NCBI RefSeq assembly: GCF_009914755.1
Contig: NC_060947.1
Direction: 5' to 3' (one strand)
Length of the DNA: 64,000 nt
Source: the human T2T-CHM13v2.0 reference genome, Homo sapiens
Positions 6,480-40,383 of this stretch are shown here, piece by piece. Every line of letters starts with the position of its first letter. Position 1 is the stretch's first letter. The notes beneath the pieces were generated by a model. That model worked only from the letters and a program-made list of their open reading frames with translations, searched no databases and was not told the DNA's origin. The position numbers and the translations under genes are program-made.

Positions 6480-7849
6480 CCATCTCACACTAGTCAGAAC
6501 GGCTGTTATTAAAAAGTCAAATAATAACAGATGTTGGAGTGGCTGAGAGAAAAGGGAATGCTTATACACTGTTGTTGGGAATGTAAATTGGTTCAGCCAC
6601 TTTGGGTAGCATTTTGGAGATTTTTAAAATAACGTAAACTGAGCTACCATTCAACCCAGCAATTTCATTATTAGGTATATACCCAAAAGAAAACAAATCA
6701 CTCTACCAAAAAGACACATGAACTCATATGTTCATTGCAGTACTATTCACAGTAGCAAAGACTTGGAAGCTACCCAGGTGCCCATCAGTGGTGGATTGGA
6801 TAGAGAAAATGTAGTACATATATACCATGGAATACTATACATTCATAAAAAGGAACAGCATCATGTTCTTTGCAGCAACGTGGTTGTAGCTGGAGTCTAG
6901 AATTCCAAACAAAGTAATGCAGTAACAGAAAACCAAATACTGCAATTTGTCACTTACAGGTGGCAGCTAAACTTTGAATACACATGGACATAGAGATAGG
7001 AACAATAGATACACAAACTATTAGATGAGGAAGGGAAGGAGGGGGCATGTGTTGAAAAGCTACCTATTAGGTGCTGTGCCTACTACTTGAGTGACAAGAT
7101 CCATAACCTAAACCTCAGCATCATGCAATATACCCATGTAACAAACCTGTACAAGTAACCCCTGTATCTAAAATAAAAATTGAAATTATTAAAAAACTTA
7201 AAAATTAATAATTATATAAATATCTTGGCAGGCTTAAAATGTGTAAAGATGTAATTGGTATGAATGTAGTAACATACAGGAAGACTAGAAGGATAGGTGC
7301 ATACTGGAAAAATATTTCTGTATGCTACTGAAATTAAGTTAGAATTATTACAAAGCAAATTGTTTCAAAATAAGATGCTAGTTATAAAACCCAAGACATC
7401 TTAGAAAATAACTCAAAAATAGAGTAAAATATACGAAAAGGAATTTAAGTGACACATTAGAAAATATTTTACTCAAAATCTGACAGTAATGGAAGATTAC
7501 AGGAACAAAGGTGACATAAGATATATAGATAATAGGAAAATGGCAGATTTCAGTTTTCTTGTCTGCATTATATATAAATTGTCTAAACACTCAAATGTCA
7601 GAAATTGGAAGAATGTATTTTTAAAGAAAAGTTCAACTTTAGGCTGCTTATATTAGACCCATTTTAAATAAAATGACAAAAATAGTTTGAAAGTAAAACA
7701 TATACCATGAACATAGTTTCTAAAATAGAGCCAAAGTGGCTGGAGTATTTCAGAAATCAAATGACTTGAGACATAAAATTATTACTGCATATGAAGAGAC
7801 ATTTTATAAAGATAAAAGTGTCAATCTATCAGGAATATATACCAATTAT

Positions 7850-8246
7850 AAGTATATACATGTATATGTATGTGTGTATATATATTATCATATATTATAC
7901 ACATATCATATATGTATTATGTATTATATTTATTATGTATTATATTTATTATGTATTATATATCATATATGTATTATGTATTATATTATACACACTATCA
8001 GAAGATCTACAGTTACCTATAAAAGATAATTCAAAAACAAGAATTATGTAGTATTAACATAAAATATTTTTCTATGCTTTAGAAAAAATATTTTTCTATG
8101 CTTTCTTTATAATATGTGTGTATATATATTATAACATATTATATATTATATTATATTATATATTATGATATATTTGATATATAATATAATTTTATTATAA
8201 CATAAAGAAAGCATAGAAAAGTATTTTAAAAATATCACATATTATA

Positions 8247-8278
<32 letters not shown>

Positions 8279-8280
8279 CA
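7850..8280. repeat. AT-rich low-complexity tract with (CA)n, containing templated direct and inverted duplications
   Basis: (TA)-rich runs; (CA)n at about 8248-8277; 20-bp direct repeat 8061-8080/8085-8104; 26-bp inverted repeat 8085-8110/8202-8227. Confidence 0.85.
7991..8066 (-). other. Inverted 76-nt copy of the exon A acceptor region (11036-11111)
   Basis: Manual alignment to the reverse complement of 11036-11111 gives 70/76 identity, no gaps, all six differences transitions. Confidence 0.95.
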
Positions 8281-9662
8281 ACAGAGCCTGAAAAGACATG
8301 AAGCAAAACCAACAGAATTTAAGAAGTCAGAAACAACAATGTTAGTTGGAGGTTTAAATATCCCACTGTCAATAATGGGTAATTAACTAGCCAGTAGATC
8401 AACATAGATATAGAAGACTTGCAAAAATCAATGAGATCTAATAGACATCTGTGGAACATTCCATGTAATAACAGCAGAATAAATATTCTTCTCAAGCATA
8501 CATGGAATATTCTCCCAGATAGACTATGTCTTATAGCATAAAATAAACCTTAATAAATTTAAAAGCGAGGTAATCATGTACAGTATGATTTTTGACAACC
8601 ACGGAATTAAATTAGAAGTCAAAAATGGAAATAAATTTGGGAAATCCTTGAATATGCGGAATTTAAAACAACATACTCCTAAATAACCAATAAGTCAAAG
8701 AAGAAATCACAAGGGAAATTAGAAAATGATATGAGATGAGTGAAAATGAAGACATAATTGACCAAAATTTAGGAGGTGCACCTGAAGCAGTGCTTAAAGG
8801 GAAATTTGTAGATGTGCATACCTGTAGTAAAAAAAGAAGAAAGATGTTAAGTCAGTTACCTAACTTTGTATCTTAAGTAACTAGAAAAACAAGCAAATGA
8901 AAGACAAGGCAAGCACAAAGAGGCAGTAAGAGAGAGTAGAGTGAAATAAAATGATATGGAAAATAAATCAATAGAGAAAACCAATAAAAACAAAAGTTAG
9001 TTATTTGAAAAGGTCAGTAAATAAGCTAATTTACCTTGACTGACAGAAAAAGAGAGAATACTCAAACTACTGAATTAAGAAATGAATATGGAGACACCAC
9101 TATCTACCTGAAGAAATAATAATTAGAGATAAATACTAAGAAAACCTGTATGCCCATAAATTTGATAATTTGGAAAAAAACTGACCAATATATAGAGTTA
9201 CAAAAACTACTGAGCTGACTCAAGAAGGAATAGAAATATGATGCACCTACAACAAGTAGAGAATTAGCATTTGTAAGACTTCCCACAAAGAAAACACAGT
9301 CTTAGATGGCTTTAATAGTGGATTTTACTCACAGTTGAAGAACTAATATTAATGTTTCACAAACACTTCTAAAAAATAAAAGATAAGTAAACATATTCTA
9401 ACTTCCACTTTGAGATCAATATTATTACCTAGATAATAAATCCAGACAGAGGCATCATGGAAAATGAAAACTACAGATCAGTTTTCCTTAGGATTATAGC
9501 CGAAATACTCTCAACAAAATATTAGAAAACTGAATTCAACAACATTTAAAAATGATTATACACCAACATAGAATATATGGAATTGTATTACCAGAGTCCA
9601 TGGCGATATATGGACTTTCCCTACACTACTGGAGTGTTTGAAGATTCCTAGAAAAGAAAATT

Positions 9663-10453
9663 CAAAAACAAGTGTTGGTGATGATGTGGATAAAGGAAAA
9701 CCCTTTTAAACTGTTGGTGGGAGTGTAAATTAGTACAGCCATTACGATAAACATTATGAAGTTTCTTCCAAAAATTAAAAGTAGAACTATCATATGATTC
9801 TGTAATTCTACTGCTGGGTATATATTCAAAAGACTTGAAATCTCTATGTCAAAGAAATATCTGCACTTTGTTGTTCATTGCAGCATTATTCACAATAGCC
9901 AAGATATGGACTGAACCTGTGTCCATCAACAAATGAATGGATAAAGAAAATGTGATATGTACGCAATGAAATACTATTCAGTCTTAAAACAGAAGGAAAT
10001 CCTGTCATTTGTGACATGGATGAACCTGGAAGCCATTATGTTGAGTGAAGTAAGCCAGGCACAGAAAAGCAAATATTGCATGATCTCAATTATATGTGGA
10101 ATCTAAAAAAGTTCAGTTCATGGAAGTGGAGAGTAGAATGGTGGTTATCAGGAGCTGATGGGGGGAGTTGTTGGAGAGATGTGAATGAAAGGACACAAAA
10201 TTTCAGTTTGATAGAAGAAATAAGTTCAAGAGAATTATTAGAGCTTGTGTACAGCATGGTTATGATAATTATAACAACGTACTGTATTCTTGAAAAGAGC
10301 TGAGAGAATAGATTTTTTGTTCACCACAAAAATGATAACTATGTGAGATAATGCATAGATTAATTAGTTTGATTTAGCCATTTCACAATGTATATATATA
10401 TATATATCAAAACATCATGTTGTACATTATATACAATTTCTCATCCATTAAAA
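9663..10453 (+). mobile_element. L1MA4/5-like 3' end
   Basis: ORF2 C-terminal remnant and 3'UTR motifs (ataagttcaagag...tcaccacaaaaatgataactatgtgag...catcatgttgtaca). Confidence 0.8.
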
Positions 10454-11085
10454 GTATGAAAAAGTTTTTAAAAGTATGCTAAATAAAAAAGTCAGTGACA
10501 AAAGTCCACATCGTACTGTTTAATTTCATTACTAATAATTGTTCATAACAGGCTCATATGTAGAGACACAAAGTAGATTATTGTTTCCCTGAGCAGTGGG
10601 AAGTAGGAAGATATAAGCACGCAGTAAACTGAAAGTTGGGTTTAGCCAGGGTGTGGTCAAATGCTGCTTAAATATTTTTTATTTGTTTTATTAATATTGA
10701 TGTAGAAATTTATTGAAATGATTCATCTCTTTTGTATATCAAACTGCCTAAAGACAATTGTGCATGGTTGATGAGAGCTATTCAGACTTTCTAAGCATCA
10801 ATGATCTTGATATAAGTAGCAACAGAATATAAGCATCATTTGTTTTGTAAGAATAATTTCCTTTGTTCCATTTTTAAATAGGTTTGTTCTTAGATTTCTC
10901 TTCTACTGGATGTAGAATTTTTCTGGCTTGCTGTTTTTTAAAAAAGTGAATGATTTTATTGGGGGTATTTAAATTAAATTTCAGTTTGTTCTATGCTTTA
11001 ACTTGTTACAGTAATTTCATGTAGTGTAGTGTACTTATTTTATGTTGATACTACATAATTCTTGTTTCTGAATTATCTCTTATAG

Positions 11086-11197
11086 GTAACTGCAGATCTT
11101 CCAATAGTGTGGGGAAATCCACAAATTACAGTATACCCTTATAAAGAAATTCTGTACCTGATTCATGTGCGCCCTTGGAAACGTGGTATATTGAAAG
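11086..11197 (+). CDS. CFAP47: CFAP47 internal coding exon A (112 nt, phase 0 to 1): VTADLPIVWGNPQITVYPYKEILYLIHVRPWKRGILK(G)
   Basis: Pyrimidine tract plus tatag acceptor; open frame; AAG|gtataa donor; terminal G plus GT of exon B forms a Gly codon in frame. Confidence 0.85.
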
Positions 11198-13789
11198 GTA
11201 TAAAATCCATTAATAAAATATTAGTCATTTTCCTACTACGCTAAGATGGAAATATGATGAGACAAATAGAAATGCAATTTGTATTTCCACTTTCTATTAA
11301 ATGACTCAGAAGAAAGTTTAATTTTATATTTCAGTCATTAGCTTTCTAAGTAATCAGGGCTTTGATGCATACATTTTATGTCTAGTGCTATATTATCTTG
11401 GCCATTTATTCAAATTTATTTGTGGAACAAATTTCTATAAATGAAAATATTTAATTAAGGGTATTTACATTTAAAATGTGATAAATACTTTCAAATACTT
11501 ATACCCGCGTATCAACCCAATGACATTTTAAGAGAATGTTTATTTACAGGACTGGATATTATAAAAACATTCACATGCACTTACTTGATATATGAAAAAT
11601 AAGTTAAAGGTTTGATATATGTGAATTTTTTCCTTTATCTTCCCTTGTCTGTAATAAAGTATTTATTTATGCAGATTTCCGCAATGGTCCCAGAACAGAA
11701 TTACTTACATGGGAATCGGAGGGAGAGGTGTTCCTGTTACTTTTTGAAGGGAGAGGGGTAAGAAGTGATAGAAGAGTAATAGCTAGTACTGAGTGATTAT
11801 GATTCATCAAAGGAATAAGTTGTCCTATTTGAGAGAAAATTAAATTCCCTATGGTAGTTGGATACTGTTGAGGAAATTATTATAATGTAGGTAAGTGGAT
11901 ACAACTTTAGAAGTGTAGAAAGCATATACATATACACATATTCTTTCTACACTTACATATGTAGTGGTATCTACTGCTCCTTGGATGTACTAGCCTCACA
12001 TCCCTGCTTACCTCAACAAAGTGTTTGAGGGAAGGGTTTATATCTAGTATAGAAGCGATAGTGAGCTGCTGCAAAGAAGAAAGTGCAGAGAGCATACTGG
12101 ATGCCTATGCTATTAAAAAGCAGAAGGGAAATTTCAGAGTGCCAACCACAATGATCCAATTATTACCACTGTAATAGAATTTATGTAGGAAGAAACAGCT
12201 GCCAATCCCCATTCCCTGCTTCTAGTGTGCTTAACCTCAAATGCCAACACAACAAAAATTGTTAGCATCTTCTGAAATCTTCCCCTTGTTTTTGAGATGT
12301 TTAGATTTACAAACCCCATTAATAAGTCCTCATTTGATAGGTAGGTTTGAGCTATAATGTCTCTAGTCCAAACATTTCAATAAAGTAACATATTTTACTA
12401 TTTTTTAGGTAATCCATAAGAAGTGAATTGATTTAAAGAAATTTAAGTTTTAGTTTTCATTTTAATTGTCATTGACAGTCCTAGTAGTTGGTATATTTTC
12501 CTTAATTTTAGAGTTTTAACTCGTCTTTTGTAAAAGGCAGCAAGTCATTCAGAATTGGTATAATTAGTTTTGATAAAACATAATCAATTTCAGTTTCCTG
12601 TTCTGTAGGAAGCAGTGAGTTCTACTACTTATGAGAAGAAACACATAAGAAACCACAAACTGTGAAACATTGTTGAATTTGGAATGTTTATAACTACCAC
12701 AAAGCCCCTGGTCTGTGAATCAAACTCTTAAAGTTATTGGAATAGACTGACGAAAAATTAAATAATTAGATTTGGCAGGCCTTTCCTTTGTGTAATCTTT
12801 TTTGTTGTTGTTGGTTTTAGCAGCTTTTGTGGCACCACAATATTTCAATACATATTTTTACTATTTTGATATGGACTATTAACATGTTGGTTTGAAAAAA
12901 TTTGGAACATATTTGGTGAAGTTAAATGCAGCGCAGGATACATTGTTAAGTGAGGATGAATTAGGTTAATGTTTCTGGCTATACAAACCATTTTACAGGC
13001 TTCATAATTTTGAAAAATATTTACAAGACGTGATCATGTTAGCTCTTCCCAGGGCAGTGCCTTAGAGTTAAATTAGTTGTCCCATTATGCTTTGGAAAAA
13101 ACAGCCTGTAAAAGGGAGCCTAGCTCTAATTTTTATTGATATTACTATTGGAAGACTTAAACTATAGATTAAACAGTATAAATACAATTGCTTCTGAACA
13201 GCTGCTAACTAATCTGAAGTGATATAAAGAAAGCTAGATTATAAAAATTTCACACATATGAGAATTTTCCTGCTTTTGCTGGTTAAAGAACCGTGTCCAT
13301 GTATGGGTGCATGCATGTGTACGCACGTGTGTTATGTATCAGATACTTTTTTAAAATTTTGTGTTCATTTTCAATTCTGTTATTGATTATATAATAATTA
13401 TTTACTAAAGACCTATAATTTGGAAAGCCTTTATAAACATAGTAGTTATGAACAAAGCTGACATTCAACTAATTATGCTTTGCTTATTGAAATATTGTAA
13501 CAACTGATCTTTTCTTATATGTTGGCAAATATTCAGTTGTTTGAGCTCCACTATCAAATAACTTTTGCCAGTCCAGATACCACAGCCCCTCACCCAGAAC
13601 TCTTGGAACCTCCCAACAATTTAGCAGCTCCTAAAGTGTTAACACATAAAGCATCAGGATGCCTCAGGACCTAGATCAGGCAGGACCTAGATCAGGTGTC
13701 CTTTCTGGTTGGTCAGTATTGGGATAAAGTTTTGTTAATTATTTTGAATATTACCACTGTATCTAAATATGAATATCACGTAGCTCCTT

Positions 13790-32897: not shown

Positions 32898-34041
32898 TTT
32901 AAAAATTATTTTCAAAGGAAAACCCATTAATATAAAATTATGTTTTTCAGCCTTTAAACTTCAGGCTTTTATATGATAATATATACTTGGAAAAAACTTG
33001 ATTAAAAAAGACTTGTATACTAGAAAATGTTTTACTGACTGTGAAAAAATGATTTTGAAAAATCAACCACTTAATGTTTAGCAAAGAAACAAGTCTGTTT
33101 TTCAAAATTAAAACTTGTGCTATTAAAAACATAATGGGTTTAATTGCTATTCCTATTAGATTTTTTCCCCCTCATAGTCTATTGAGACAAACTGAAAATC
33201 TCCATTAATTCAATGATGCTGTTATCTTAATGTGGGGAGTTGCTTTTAGATACTAGTATTATTACTGTCATATTTATAGTTTTACCAAAGCAGTCTAATA
33301 ATTTTCCTATTACTTTGACAAACTCAAGCACCAGCAAACCAAGTTTTATATTTATTTCTGTTTCCTGTTGGAACAATTGACCTTACCCTGAAGAGTGGAA
33401 TATAGGCCAAAAACATAGCATGTACATATGTTGTGAAAAAAAGTTATCATGTTTTGGAAAATATATTATTCTCATAATCATTATTTGCTGCATTTCATTT
33501 GAAGATTTACTGCTGACAATCAGGTTGCTAAGTATAATATTATTCATTATAATATGTGACAAGAATTTGAGTGTCTCTTCCACAGTAGCTAATTAACAAT
33601 AAAAAATATACGTAAAAGGAAAAGAAAAAAATGTTTAGAAACAAAATTAAATTGACATTGTCAAGAAAAAGGTTTTTCATGAGAAAAATATCTGGGCAAA
33701 TTAATGGCATACTTCTAAGATATATTGTTTAAAAATGTTCCTTCAATTAAAACGTGAACTACTGAGTAAACACATAATTGCTTCTGTAGTTCTCTTCACC
33801 AATTTTTATTTTTTGTGATAGTTAACTATTTCTCATTCTGTTCTATAATATACAGTCTTGTAATACTCATATAGGGCTTTTAAATTATTTTACAAATGAA
33901 TGCCCAATTTCTATTTGTTAAGGGATAATAAAACATAATAAACTTTAAATGAGTGAGTTAGGGGAAAGAAAAATATGCTGAGTCTATAATGGACTGAAAT
34001 GAATGAGAATGGAAAATATGTACTTTTAATTTGTGAGAGCA

Positions 34042-40239: not shown

Positions 40240-40383
40240 GTACAATTACATTTTCTACTACAAGAAGATGTACTACAAGAAGGAAACATGATGATTATGA
40301 GGAAGACACAGATCAAGATCAAGCCCTCTCCTGTCTTGATTCAATAACAGAACAATCTAGCATTTTGGATGATGCAGACACAT
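40240..40383 (+). CDS. CFAP47: CFAP47 coding exon B (144 nt, phase 1 to 1): (G)TITFSTTRRCTTRRKHDDYEEDTDQDQALSCLDSITEQSSILDDADT
   Basis: gttgtag acceptor, CAT|gtaagt donor, frame continuous with exons A and C. Confidence 0.85.

What the first reader, a model, noticed from the sequence alone, without database searches (positions are those of the whole stretch)
7991..11111. Built-in antisense copy of a splice acceptor: a 76-nt inverted duplicate of the exon A 3' splice site, 3 kb upstream in the same intron
Seen: 7991-8066 is the ungapped reverse complement of 11036-11111 at 70/76 identity. The matched region covers 50 intronic nt (probable branch region, pyrimidine tract, AG at 11084-11085) and the first 26 exon nt. 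It is non-repeat gene sequence sitting inside an old L1M. All six differences are transitions, including a tg/ca pair typical of CpG decay on opposite strands, so the copy is old. In the + strand pre-mRNA the two segments could form a duplex of about 76 bp. Its mismatches would be four A(copy):C, one C:A (exon A at 11103) and one U:G wobble. Established: long-range RNA duplexes over 3' splice sites can promote exon skipping, and A:C mismatches in dsRNA are favoured ADAR sites. Inference: this could act as an endogenous cis splice switch. Skipping the 112-nt exon would shift the frame, linking it to NMD-type dosage control, possibly tuned by editing. It may equally be a neutral repair scar.
Basis: partly seen in the sequence, partly recalled or inferred. 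Interest (0 to 1): 0.85.

Follow-up and report, generated by a model that had tools for sequence, protein, structure and literature searches.

The report
Inverted repair-scar copies of a splice acceptor
Two short backwards copies of one CFAP47 splice acceptor lie upstream in the same intron; they look like old DNA-repair scars that could pair with the acceptor in the RNA, but nothing yet shows that they regulate splicing.

Summary
7991-8066 is the ungapped reverse complement of 11036-11111 (70/76, six transitions). It covers branch-point-like motifs, the pyrimidine tract, the AG and 26 exon nt, and it is unique in the genome.

New here:
- Copy 1 lies in a ~410-nt TA/CA microsatellite cluster that other L1 copies lack. 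Its junctions show microhomology (CACA, AAAATA). It is fused to a 15-nt direct snippet from 36 nt upstream of its source, and that junction was itself re-copied nearby.
- A second, older inverted copy of the same acceptor (9580-9672 vs 11061-11152, 70%) fills a genome-unique gap between two L1 fragments.
- The exon peptide is conserved in distant CFAP47-sized proteins, so the exon is the source.

Most likely both copies are templated-insertion or template-switch repair scars.

As RNA, copy 1 pairs with the acceptor at -94.6 kcal/mol and appears in the minimum-energy fold of 3.5 kb. A splice or editing effect is therefore physically possible but untested. None of the six differences is compensated, and five break pairing.

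Two independent copies of one acceptor remain an unexplained coincidence. Primate alignments and testis or airway RNA-seq would decide.

The parts
7991..8066 (+). Copy 1: inverted 76-nt copy of the exon A 3' splice-site region (antisense to it in the pre-mRNA)
   Evidence: 70/76, ungapped; E 1.2e-21; only 2 places in the genome
11036..11111 (+). Source of copy 1: 50 intron nt (branch-point-like motifs with A at 11037, 11042 and 11048; pyrimidine tract; AG at 11084-85) plus the first 26 nt of exon A
11086..11197 (+). CFAP47 coding exon A, 112 nt, phase-shifting if skipped; its peptide is conserved in distant homologues
   Evidence: Hub annotation; mod 3 = 1; 53-57% identity to three representatives, one of 3123 aa; 95% to a langur protein
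8067..8081 (+). 15-nt direct-orientation snippet fused to the 3' end of copy 1, matching 10986-11000 at 14/15
   Evidence: the 11-mer TTCTATGCTTT occurs 4 times in the window against 0.06 expected: 8070, 8094, 8208 on the minus strand, 10989
10986..11000 (+). Probable template of the direct snippet, 36 nt upstream of the source of copy 1
7864..8272 (.). TA/CA-rich microsatellite cluster that hosts copy 1; absent from other L1 copies, which have 13-22 nt here in the three copies where both flanks were matched and the right flank starts at the boundary
   Evidence: tandem arrays; left flank ends at query 392-414, right flank starts at query 823-831
8085..8115 (+). Direct re-copy of the copy-1/snippet junction; also the left arm of a local 31-nt inverted repeat
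   Evidence: I2, 90% complementary; I5
8197..8227 (+). Inverted re-copy of the same junction (right arm of the local inverted repeat)
   Evidence: I2
9580..9672 (+). Copy 2: older inverted copy of the acceptor and exon start (core 9616-9666). It fills the genome-unique gap 9566-9650 between two L1 fragments; right junction microhomology AACAAG
   Evidence: E 3.5e-9; score 35 vs 11.2 +/- 1.6, max 19; L1 homology ends at or before 9565 and resumes at or after 9650; (gap sequence matches only itself in the genome)
11061..11152 (+). Source of copy 2; overlaps the source of copy 1 over 11061-11111
   Evidence: identity 21/25 intron, 23/32 and 21/35 exon
8272..9565 (+). Left L1-type fragment (high-copy interspersed repeat); continues the 7450-7863 piece across the cluster
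9651..10511 (+). Right L1 fragment (ORF2 C-terminal part and beyond)
   Evidence: (9763-9918 matches LINE-1 ORF2 protein residues 1160-1211, E 1.6e-13)

Best explanation
Both inverted copies are scars of error-prone, microhomology-primed template switching (MMBIR, FoSTeS or synthesis-dependent end-joining type templated insertion). They are not evolved regulators. Copy 2 came first: a break inside an L1 element lost about 0.3-0.55 kb of L1. The 3' end on the right side annealed through CTTGTT/AACAAG to the acceptor region 1.4 kb downstream, copied about 90 nt and was rejoined. Copy 1 came much later (about 8% divergence, tens of millions of years by recalled primate rates). A TA/CA microsatellite had grown in the same L1 and broke or stalled a fork. 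A 3' end ending in CACA annealed at 11108-11111 and copied back to 11036. Synthesis then switched strand to copy about 15 nt from 10986-11000 and returned. The new junction was later re-copied twice within the cluster. One by-product is that the pre-mRNA carries a 76-nt antisense to its own branch region, pyrimidine tract, AG and exon start. That antisense can form a very stable duplex and may be edited or mildly slow use of the acceptor. Shown: the sequence relations, the junctions, genome uniqueness and the thermodynamics. Inferred: the repair pathway, the order of events, the ages and the lack of function.
For: (1) Host sites are repair-prone or are junctions. Copy 1 lies in a ~410-nt TA/CA cluster that other L1 copies lack; three copies matched on both flanks, with the right flank starting at the boundary, have only 13-22 nt there. 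Copy 2 fills 9566-9650. In 39 of 39 other genomic matches the left L1 homology ends at or before 9565. In 39 of 39 the right L1 homology starts at or after 9650. Four other copies have 289-553 nt of mutually homologous L1 between these points. The filler does not match that L1 sequence (scores 8-10, equal to the null), but it matches the reverse-complemented exon region at 21 (null 9.3 +/- 1.3, max 12), and at 35 when extended to 9672. The filler has no other match in the genome. (2) Junction microhomology: CACA on the left and AAAATA on the right of copy 1, AACAAG on the right of copy 2. (3) The event was compound. A 15-nt direct snippet from 36 nt upstream of the source is fused to copy 1 (its 11-mer occurs 4 times in 64 kb against 0.06 expected). 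The junction was re-copied once direct and once inverted. (4) The direction is exon to copies. The exon peptide is conserved at 53-57% in three distant representatives, one of 3123 aa. A profile of 16 L1 copies does not hit the exon region, and 29 L1 copies score 9-18 against it where the null is 11.6 +/- 1.7. (5) There is no sign of selection for pairing. None of the 6 differences is compensated and 5 of 6 are pair-breaking A:C. With copy 2 as outgroup, changes fall on both partners: source 11068 and 11079; copy 1 at 7999, 8000 and 8009. (6) The signature matches print. Passages seen describe inverted insertions near their template flanked by microhomology (PMC8421209), multiple template switches (PMC2621351), and template switches that create inverted repeats and hairpins without selection (PMC5453318). 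(7) Complementary regions over active splice sites are depleted genome-wide (PMC8052449). A long-tolerated copy at the acceptor of a coding exon of a disease-linked X gene (search listing) therefore suggests a weak effect in vivo.
Against: Two independent inverted copies of the same 51-nt acceptor stretch lie in one intron, while none of the other five exons in the window has any copy at E < 1e-3. If templates were drawn evenly from a few kb this would be a coincidence of roughly 1 in 100 (my arithmetic, no call). The template distances of 3.0 and 1.4 kb are far beyond the 100 bp that MMBSearch scans and beyond the same-fork range of short template switches. The microhomologies lie in A/T-rich, low-complexity sequence, where short matches are cheap. 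No outgroup genome could be examined, so neither the derived state nor the neutral rate was tested. The duplex is far more stable than any other partner of the acceptor and is in the MFE fold, so an RNA-level effect cannot be dismissed.
Confidence: 0.72

Rival explanations
1. Functional cis-antisense element. In the pre-mRNA, copy 1 pairs with the branch region, pyrimidine tract, AG and exon start. This lowers use of the acceptor and gives frame-shifting exon skipping with NMD-type dosage control, tuned by ADAR editing of the duplex. Copy 2 would be a decayed predecessor, which implies turnover of a selected element.
For: Duplex energy is -94.6 kcal/mol, against a median of -19.1 and a 1st percentile of -39 for upstream tiles. 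The helix is in the MFE fold of 3.5 kb. It covers all three branch-point-like motifs, the pyrimidine tract and the AG; the AG sits in a TAG triplet, and there are five A:C mismatches. The longest uninterrupted run is 32 bp. The same acceptor was captured twice, and none of the other five exons was captured. In print, double-stranded structure is generally obstructive to splice sites and enriched in editing sites (PMC8052449, passages), and intronic duplexes over kb ranges promote exon skipping in reporters (PMC13019944, passages).
Against: There is no expression, editing or cross-linking evidence. None of the 6 differences is compensated and 5 of 6 break pairs. Copy 2 has decayed to 44 of 57 Watson-Crick pairs in its core and is not used in the MFE fold. 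The host sites and junctions look like repair products. Structures over active splice sites are depleted genome-wide. Paper searches on CFAP47 with 'exon skipping' or 'RNA editing' gave nothing on this exon.
Confidence: 0.1
2. Mutational hot spot. The acceptor region is a preferred template because it is often single-stranded or stalls forks (for example through a local hairpin or transcription-linked structure). Repeated capture would then reflect mutation bias and neither chance nor selection.
For: The same 51 nt were used twice at very different times (92% vs 70% identity). A third small piece came from 36 nt upstream. The source carries a 7-nt inverted repeat, 11019-11025 with 11050-11056, and a short tandem gtagt motif, both read directly. 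MMBIR is proposed to use any nearby single-stranded DNA sharing microhomology (PMC2621351, passage).
Against: No property of the source was tested for fragility. The 7-nt hairpin is weak. There are only two or three events.
Confidence: 0.13
3. The exon and its acceptor are themselves derived from antisense L1, so the similarity to 9580-9672 is shared L1 ancestry and not copying.
For: 9651-9672 overlaps true L1 sequence. In 5 of 29 L1 copies the best weak local alignment to the exon region falls at the collinear L1 position. The multiple alignment shows faint resemblance.
Against: The L1 profile does not hit the exon region even at E <= 1000. The 29 copies score 9-18 where the null is 11.6 +/- 1.7, while the window's own piece scores 35. 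The filler 9566-9650 is not L1. The exon peptide is conserved in distant homologues. The exon flanks 10600-12400 have no L1 match.
Confidence: 0.02

Closest known systems
MMBIR-type templated insertions (MMB-TI) and FoSTeS/MMBIR template switching (PMC8421209, PMC2621351; passages read)
   Same: The insertion is an inverted copy of a nearby template and is flanked by microhomology. It is a compound event with more than one switch. It lies at an unstable site or at a deletion junction.
   Different: The templates lie 1.4 and 3.0 kb away. The published detector scans only 100 bp, while classical MMBIR rearrangements span tens to hundreds of kb. These events are fixed and ancient, and the template is a working splice acceptor.
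Short template-switch mutations that create inverted repeats and RNA hairpins (Loytynoja and Goldman 2017, PMC5453318, passages; de novo miRNA preprint 10.1101/2023.04.19.537475, search listing only)
   Same: A reverse-complement copy creates a new inverted repeat able to fold as RNA, with no selection needed. The local re-copies at 8085-8115 and 8197-8227 fit this class well.
   Different: Those events are modelled within one replication fork, with fragments of tens of bases close to the site. Copy 1 is 76 nt from 3 kb away.
Long-range complementary regions in human introns that affect splicing (PCCRs, Kalmykova et al. 2021, PMC8052449, passages; inverted-Alu duplexes, PMC13019944, passages)
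   Same: An intronic pair of complementary regions kilobases apart, with one arm over a splice site. The predicted energy is far below the -30 kcal/mol bound of that catalogue's energy classes as given in the passage read.
   Different: PCCRs are defined in conserved, non-repeat sequence and are depleted at active splice sites. This pair has one arm in non-conserved repeat context and the other on an active acceptor. It does not loop out the exon, and there is no conservation or experimental support.
ADAR editing-site complementary sequences (ECS) of recoding targets such as GRIA2 (recalled, no call)
   Same: An intronic stretch complementary to exon sequence forms the dsRNA that ADAR needs. 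There is an A:C mismatch at exon position 11103.
   Different: No editing is known here. Editing at 11103 would be synonymous (CCA to CCG in the frame). The element lies upstream, not downstream, and covers the acceptor.

Membership tests
Templated insertion by microhomology-primed template switching (MMB-TI / MMBIR / SD-MMEJ type) | The inserted stretch is an inverted copy of a template on the same chromosome nearby | tested here: met
   Copy 1 is 70/76. Copy 2 is 70% over 93 nt, score 35 against a null of 10-11. Both are unique in the genome.
Templated insertion by microhomology-primed template switching (MMB-TI / MMBIR / SD-MMEJ type) | Microhomology at the junctions | tested here: met
   CACA and AAAATA for copy 1, AACAAG for copy 2. 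Caveat: the context is A/T-rich and low in complexity, so the weight of this is modest.
Templated insertion by microhomology-primed template switching (MMB-TI / MMBIR / SD-MMEJ type) | Complexity: more than one template switch, or an accompanying deletion | tested here: met
   A 15-nt direct snippet is fused to copy 1. The junction was re-copied direct and inverted. Copy 2 replaces 289-553 nt of L1.
Templated insertion by microhomology-primed template switching (MMB-TI / MMBIR / SD-MMEJ type) | Template very close to the insertion (within 100 bp in MMBSearch; same fork for short template switches) | tested here: not met
   The distances are 2969 nt and about 1.4 kb. This fits the looser MMBIR idea of 'any single-stranded DNA nearby', not the short-range classes.
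Templated insertion by microhomology-primed template switching (MMB-TI / MMBIR / SD-MMEJ type) | Derived state: absent at the orthologous site of outgroups that predate the event | not testable with these tools
   No primate or mammalian genome DNA was available. Only one langur protein was reachable.
Functional long-range RNA structure regulating splicing (PCCR-like) | Stable complementarity between two regions of one pre-mRNA | tested here: met
   -94.6 kcal/mol; present in the MFE fold of 3501 nt.
Functional long-range RNA structure regulating splicing (PCCR-like) | Conservation or compensatory substitutions that keep the pairing | tested here: not met
   Within the human sequence, none of the 6 differences is compensated and 5 of 6 break pairs. 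The cross-species test was not possible.
Functional long-range RNA structure regulating splicing (PCCR-like) | Experimental evidence of pairing and of an effect on exon inclusion | not testable with these tools
   No RNA-seq, RIC-seq, PARIS or minigene data were available. Paper searches gave nothing on this exon.
ADAR editing-site complementary sequence | Intronic complement of exon sequence forming dsRNA | tested here: met
   26 exon nt are paired, with an A:C mismatch at 11103.
ADAR editing-site complementary sequence | Observed A-to-I editing of the exon or duplex | not testable with these tools
   No editing database was on hand. The search for CFAP47 with 'RNA editing' found 3 papers, none on this by title.
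Inverted pair of interspersed repeats (Alu/L1 type) | Both arms belong to a multi-copy family | tested here: not met
   The genome search found 2 places only. The L1 profile does not hit either arm.

The most novel reading that the evidence does not exclude
The same acceptor was captured in antisense twice because such copies are kept by selection. Under this reading CFAP47 exon A carries a self-made cis-antisense brake, and the younger copy 1 has replaced the decayed copy 2. The brake masks the branch site, pyrimidine tract and AG. It is a ready ADAR substrate, since the AG lies in a TAG triplet and five A:C mismatches are present. It would set the share of frame-shifted, NMD-bound transcripts in testis and ciliated cells. 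That would be a natural case of template-switch mutation giving birth to a splice regulator, with turnover.
Probability: 0.08. Interest if true: 0.8.

Novelty: new member of a known kind. Interest (0 to 1): 0.38.

Why it matters
If the copies are neutral, this is a clean and datable example of kilobase-range templated insertions fixed in the human germ line. There are two events of different age from one template, a range that current detectors do not scan. It also shows that a -95 kcal/mol antisense to an active acceptor can be tolerated in an X-linked gene whose loss is linked in print to sperm flagellar defects, ciliary dyskinesia and polycystic kidney disease (titles and abstracts only). 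That bears on how often predicted long-range duplexes actually form in vivo. If the copies are functional, this would be a regulator born by template switching and would make the idea directly testable in one intron. Practically, variants that strengthen the duplex (reverting any of the five A:C mismatches) or delete the copy are candidate non-coding modifiers of CFAP47 splicing.

Tried and rejected
- Chance match: rejected.
- Repeat family: rejected.
- Exon derived from antisense L1: rejected.
- I first read the left L1 piece as the N-terminal reverse-transcriptase region, which implied a ~2-kb internal deletion. This was wrong: four other copies have only 289-553 nt between the two flanks.
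- blastn with the filler 9566-9650 alone did not report the exon (word size too large for 74% identity). Smith-Waterman did: 21 against a next best of 14 among 847 tiles.
- Pfam on ten open pieces of the L1 flanks gave no L1 family; the one listed match (Attacin_C, E 0.058) is far below its cut-off. PDB sequence searches with two left-fragment pieces found nothing. Only the right fragment is confirmed as LINE-1 ORF2.
- Rfam on 7000-12000 gave only sub-threshold miRNA-like hits in the TA/TG repeats; the best was mir-297, 36.8 bits against a gathering score of 90.
- Paper searches for CFAP47 with 'exon skipping' (3 papers) and with 'RNA editing' (3 papers) gave nothing on this exon by title or abstract.
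- A search for the origin of editing complementary sequences by inverted duplication returned only unrelated plant miRNA and structural-variant papers among the 10 listed.
- Supplementary tables of the PCCR and RIC-seq papers were not opened. They might list this gene, though one arm lies in non-conserved repeat context and, from memory, CFAP47 expression is confined to testis and ciliated tissues.
- Pair-breaking against wobble differences: 5 to 1 is not significant against 50:50 (one-sided 7/64, my arithmetic).
Full report
**Observation**

- The repeat finder reports arms 7991-8066 and 11036-11111: 76 nt, 92% complementary, 2969 nt apart.
- My alignment gives 70/76 without gaps. The six differences are at 7999/11103, 8000/11102, 8009/11093, 8023/11079, 8034/11068 and 8055/11047, all transitions. 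Similarity stops abruptly on both sides.
- Read as RNA pairs there are 70 Watson-Crick, one G:U and five A:C.
- The source holds 50 intron nt and 26 exon nt. The exon is 112 nt, so skipping it shifts the frame.
- In-window blastn gives E = 1.2e-21.
- A search of the whole 3.1-Gb assembly with 10986-11135 finds only the source and the copy. This is unique gene sequence, not a repeat family.

**Where copy 1 sits**

The copy is not simply inside L1 sequence. It lies in a TA/CA-rich cluster with tandem arrays at 7855-7986 and 8121-8204 and (CA)15 at 8248-8277.

A genome search with 7450-8750 shows high-copy homology on both sides: 4282 first-look candidates, of which 40 were scored. The left flank ends at window 7841-7863 and the right flank resumes at 8272-8280. 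Three other copies matched on both flanks, with the right flank starting at the boundary, have only 13-22 nt between these points. So about 410 nt, copy 1 included, were added at a microsatellite that grew inside the element.

**Junctions of copy 1**

- Left junction: the first four bases (CACA) are shared between the local repeat unit, seen again at 7896, and the source.
- Right junction: AAAATA is shared with the unit that follows.
- Directly fused to the 3' end of copy 1 is a 15-nt piece (8067-8081). It matches 10986-11000 at 14/15 in direct orientation, and that template lies 36 nt upstream of the source.
- Its 11-mer TTCTATGCTTT occurs four times in the 64-kb window, at 8070, 8094, 8208 (minus strand) and 10989, where 0.06 are expected.
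- The junction of copy 1 and snippet was later re-copied, once direct (8085-8115) and once inverted (8197-8227). These two form a local 31-nt inverted repeat.

This is a compound product of several switches at an unstable site.

**A second, older copy**

The in-window search also returned 11061-11152 against 9672-9580: 70% over 93 nt with one gap, E = 3.5e-9. The local score is 35, against 11.2 +/- 1.6 (maximum 19) for 300 shuffles.

I first suspected shared L1 ancestry, and the tests went the other way.
- With 9480-9900 as query, all 39 other genomic matches begin at query 171 or later, that is window 9650 or later.
- With 9150-9665 as query, all 39 end at query 416 or earlier, that is window 9565 or earlier.
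- Four other copies that carry both flanks have 289-553 nt between them. Those stretches are homologous to each other (scores 39-157).
- The window's filler 9566-9650 does not match them (scores 8-10, equal to the null). It matches the reverse-complemented exon region at 21 (null 9.3 +/- 1.3, maximum 12), and at 35 when extended to 9672.
- The filler has no other match in the genome.
- A profile of 16 L1 copies hits 9651-9710 (E = 7e-11) but hits neither the exon region nor copy 1.
- 29 L1 copies score 9-18 against the exon region, where the null is 11.6 +/- 1.7.
- The right flank is true LINE-1 ORF2, residues 1160-1211 of the solved protein (E = 1.6e-13). The L1 label of the left flank rests on copy number and my reading, because Pfam and PDB searches gave nothing.

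Copy 2 therefore replaces a lost piece of L1 at a deletion junction. Its right join falls in AACAAG, which is shared by L1 and the source.

**Direction of copying**

The exon peptide is 95% identical to a langur protein. It is 53-57% identical over its whole length to three representatives of a library clustered at 50% identity, one of them 3123 aa long. Invariant residues include V1, D4, L5, V8, W9, G10 and P12. The exon is old and constrained, so it is the template and the two intronic pieces are the copies.

**Using copy 2 as an outgroup**

For five of the six differences between copy 1 and the source, copy 2 can be read.
- It sides with copy 1 at 11068 and 11079. The acceptor therefore changed T to C twice, both pyrimidine-to-pyrimidine in the tract.
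- It sides with the source at 11093, 11102 and 11103. Copy 1 therefore changed there.

Changes fall on both partners and none restores pairing.

**RNA level**

- RNAduplex gives -94.6 kcal/mol for copy 1 with the acceptor and -58.2 for copy 2.
- For 76-nt tiles of the upstream 10.9 kb, the median is -19.1 and the first percentile is -39.
- The minimum-energy fold of 7800-11300 (3501 nt, -782 kcal/mol) pairs 68 acceptor positions with copy 1 and none with copy 2.
- The helix covers the three branch-point-like motifs (A at 11037, 11042 and 11048), the pyrimidine tract (68% pyrimidine) and the AG. The AG lies in a TAG triplet.
- The longest uninterrupted run is 32 bp.

These are equilibrium predictions for naked RNA. 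They say pairing is possible, not that it happens during transcription.

**Controls**

None of the other five exons in the window has any direct or inverted copy at E < 1e-3. Among all self-matches of the window at 88% identity or more (6 pairs), copy 1 is the longest. The other five are 39-48 nt, and I did not classify them further.

**Comparison with print**

- Inverted insertions close to their template and flanked by microhomology are the stated signature of MMBIR-type templated insertions. The published tool looks only within 100 bp (PMC8421209, passages).
- MMBIR proposes that 3' tails anneal by microhomology to any nearby single-stranded DNA, with several switches (PMC2621351, passages).
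- Short template switches create inverted repeats and hairpins without selection (PMC5453318, passages).
- On the RNA side, complementary regions are depleted at active splice sites, enriched at inactive ones, tend to avoid branch points and are enriched in editing sites (PMC8052449, passages).
- Inverted-Alu duplexes promote exon skipping in reporters (PMC13019944, passages).

**Verdict**

The most likely account (about 0.7) is two repair scars of one known kind, made at different times from one template, with an incidental and probably weak RNA consequence.

What this account does not explain well is why the same acceptor was used twice. Mutation bias at the source (about 0.13) and selection for antisense copies (about 0.1) remain open. 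Neither can be separated from chance without other primate genomes and RNA data from tissues that express the gene, and neither was available here.

The ages I give rest on recalled primate substitution rates and on 6 differences in 76 nt, so they are rough. Copy 1 is put at tens of millions of years. Copy 2 is comparable in divergence to the L1 copies themselves.

Noticed in passing
window 8085-8115 and 8197-8227: A local 31-nt inverted repeat (90% complementary, 81-nt TA-rich spacer), made of re-copies of the copy-1/snippet junction. It would fold as a hairpin in the pre-mRNA and fits the short template-switch class.
   Followed up: partly
window 7852-7916: A sub-threshold Rfam match to the mir-297 precursor family (36.8 bits against a gathering score of 90, E 5.6e-4), plus weaker mir-466 and mir-3149 hits in the TA/TG repeats. 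Most likely a low-complexity resemblance.
   Followed up: no
window 11019-11025 and 11050-11056; 11020-11034: The source region carries a 7-nt inverted repeat (24-nt spacer) that straddles the start of the copied stretch, and a short tandem gtagt motif just upstream (read). This could bear on why the region was used as a template more than once.
   Followed up: no
P0001 residues 182-221 (langur protein) against window 11086-11205: The langur protein model continues with GIK after the exon. This is identical to a read-through into the human intron (11197-11205), whereas the next human exon starts differently at 40240. The model probably reads into the intron, which also suggests the intron start is conserved in that monkey.
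   Followed up: partly
window 11187-11232 and 32907-32948: A weak direct match (76% over 46 nt, E 0.006) covering the exon A donor site and the start of the downstream intron. It is borderline and may be chance.
   Followed up: no
window 9566-9579: 14 nt between the end of the left L1 fragment and the start of the alignable part of copy 2 match nothing I tested. They may be untemplated filler or decayed copy sequence.
   Followed up: no
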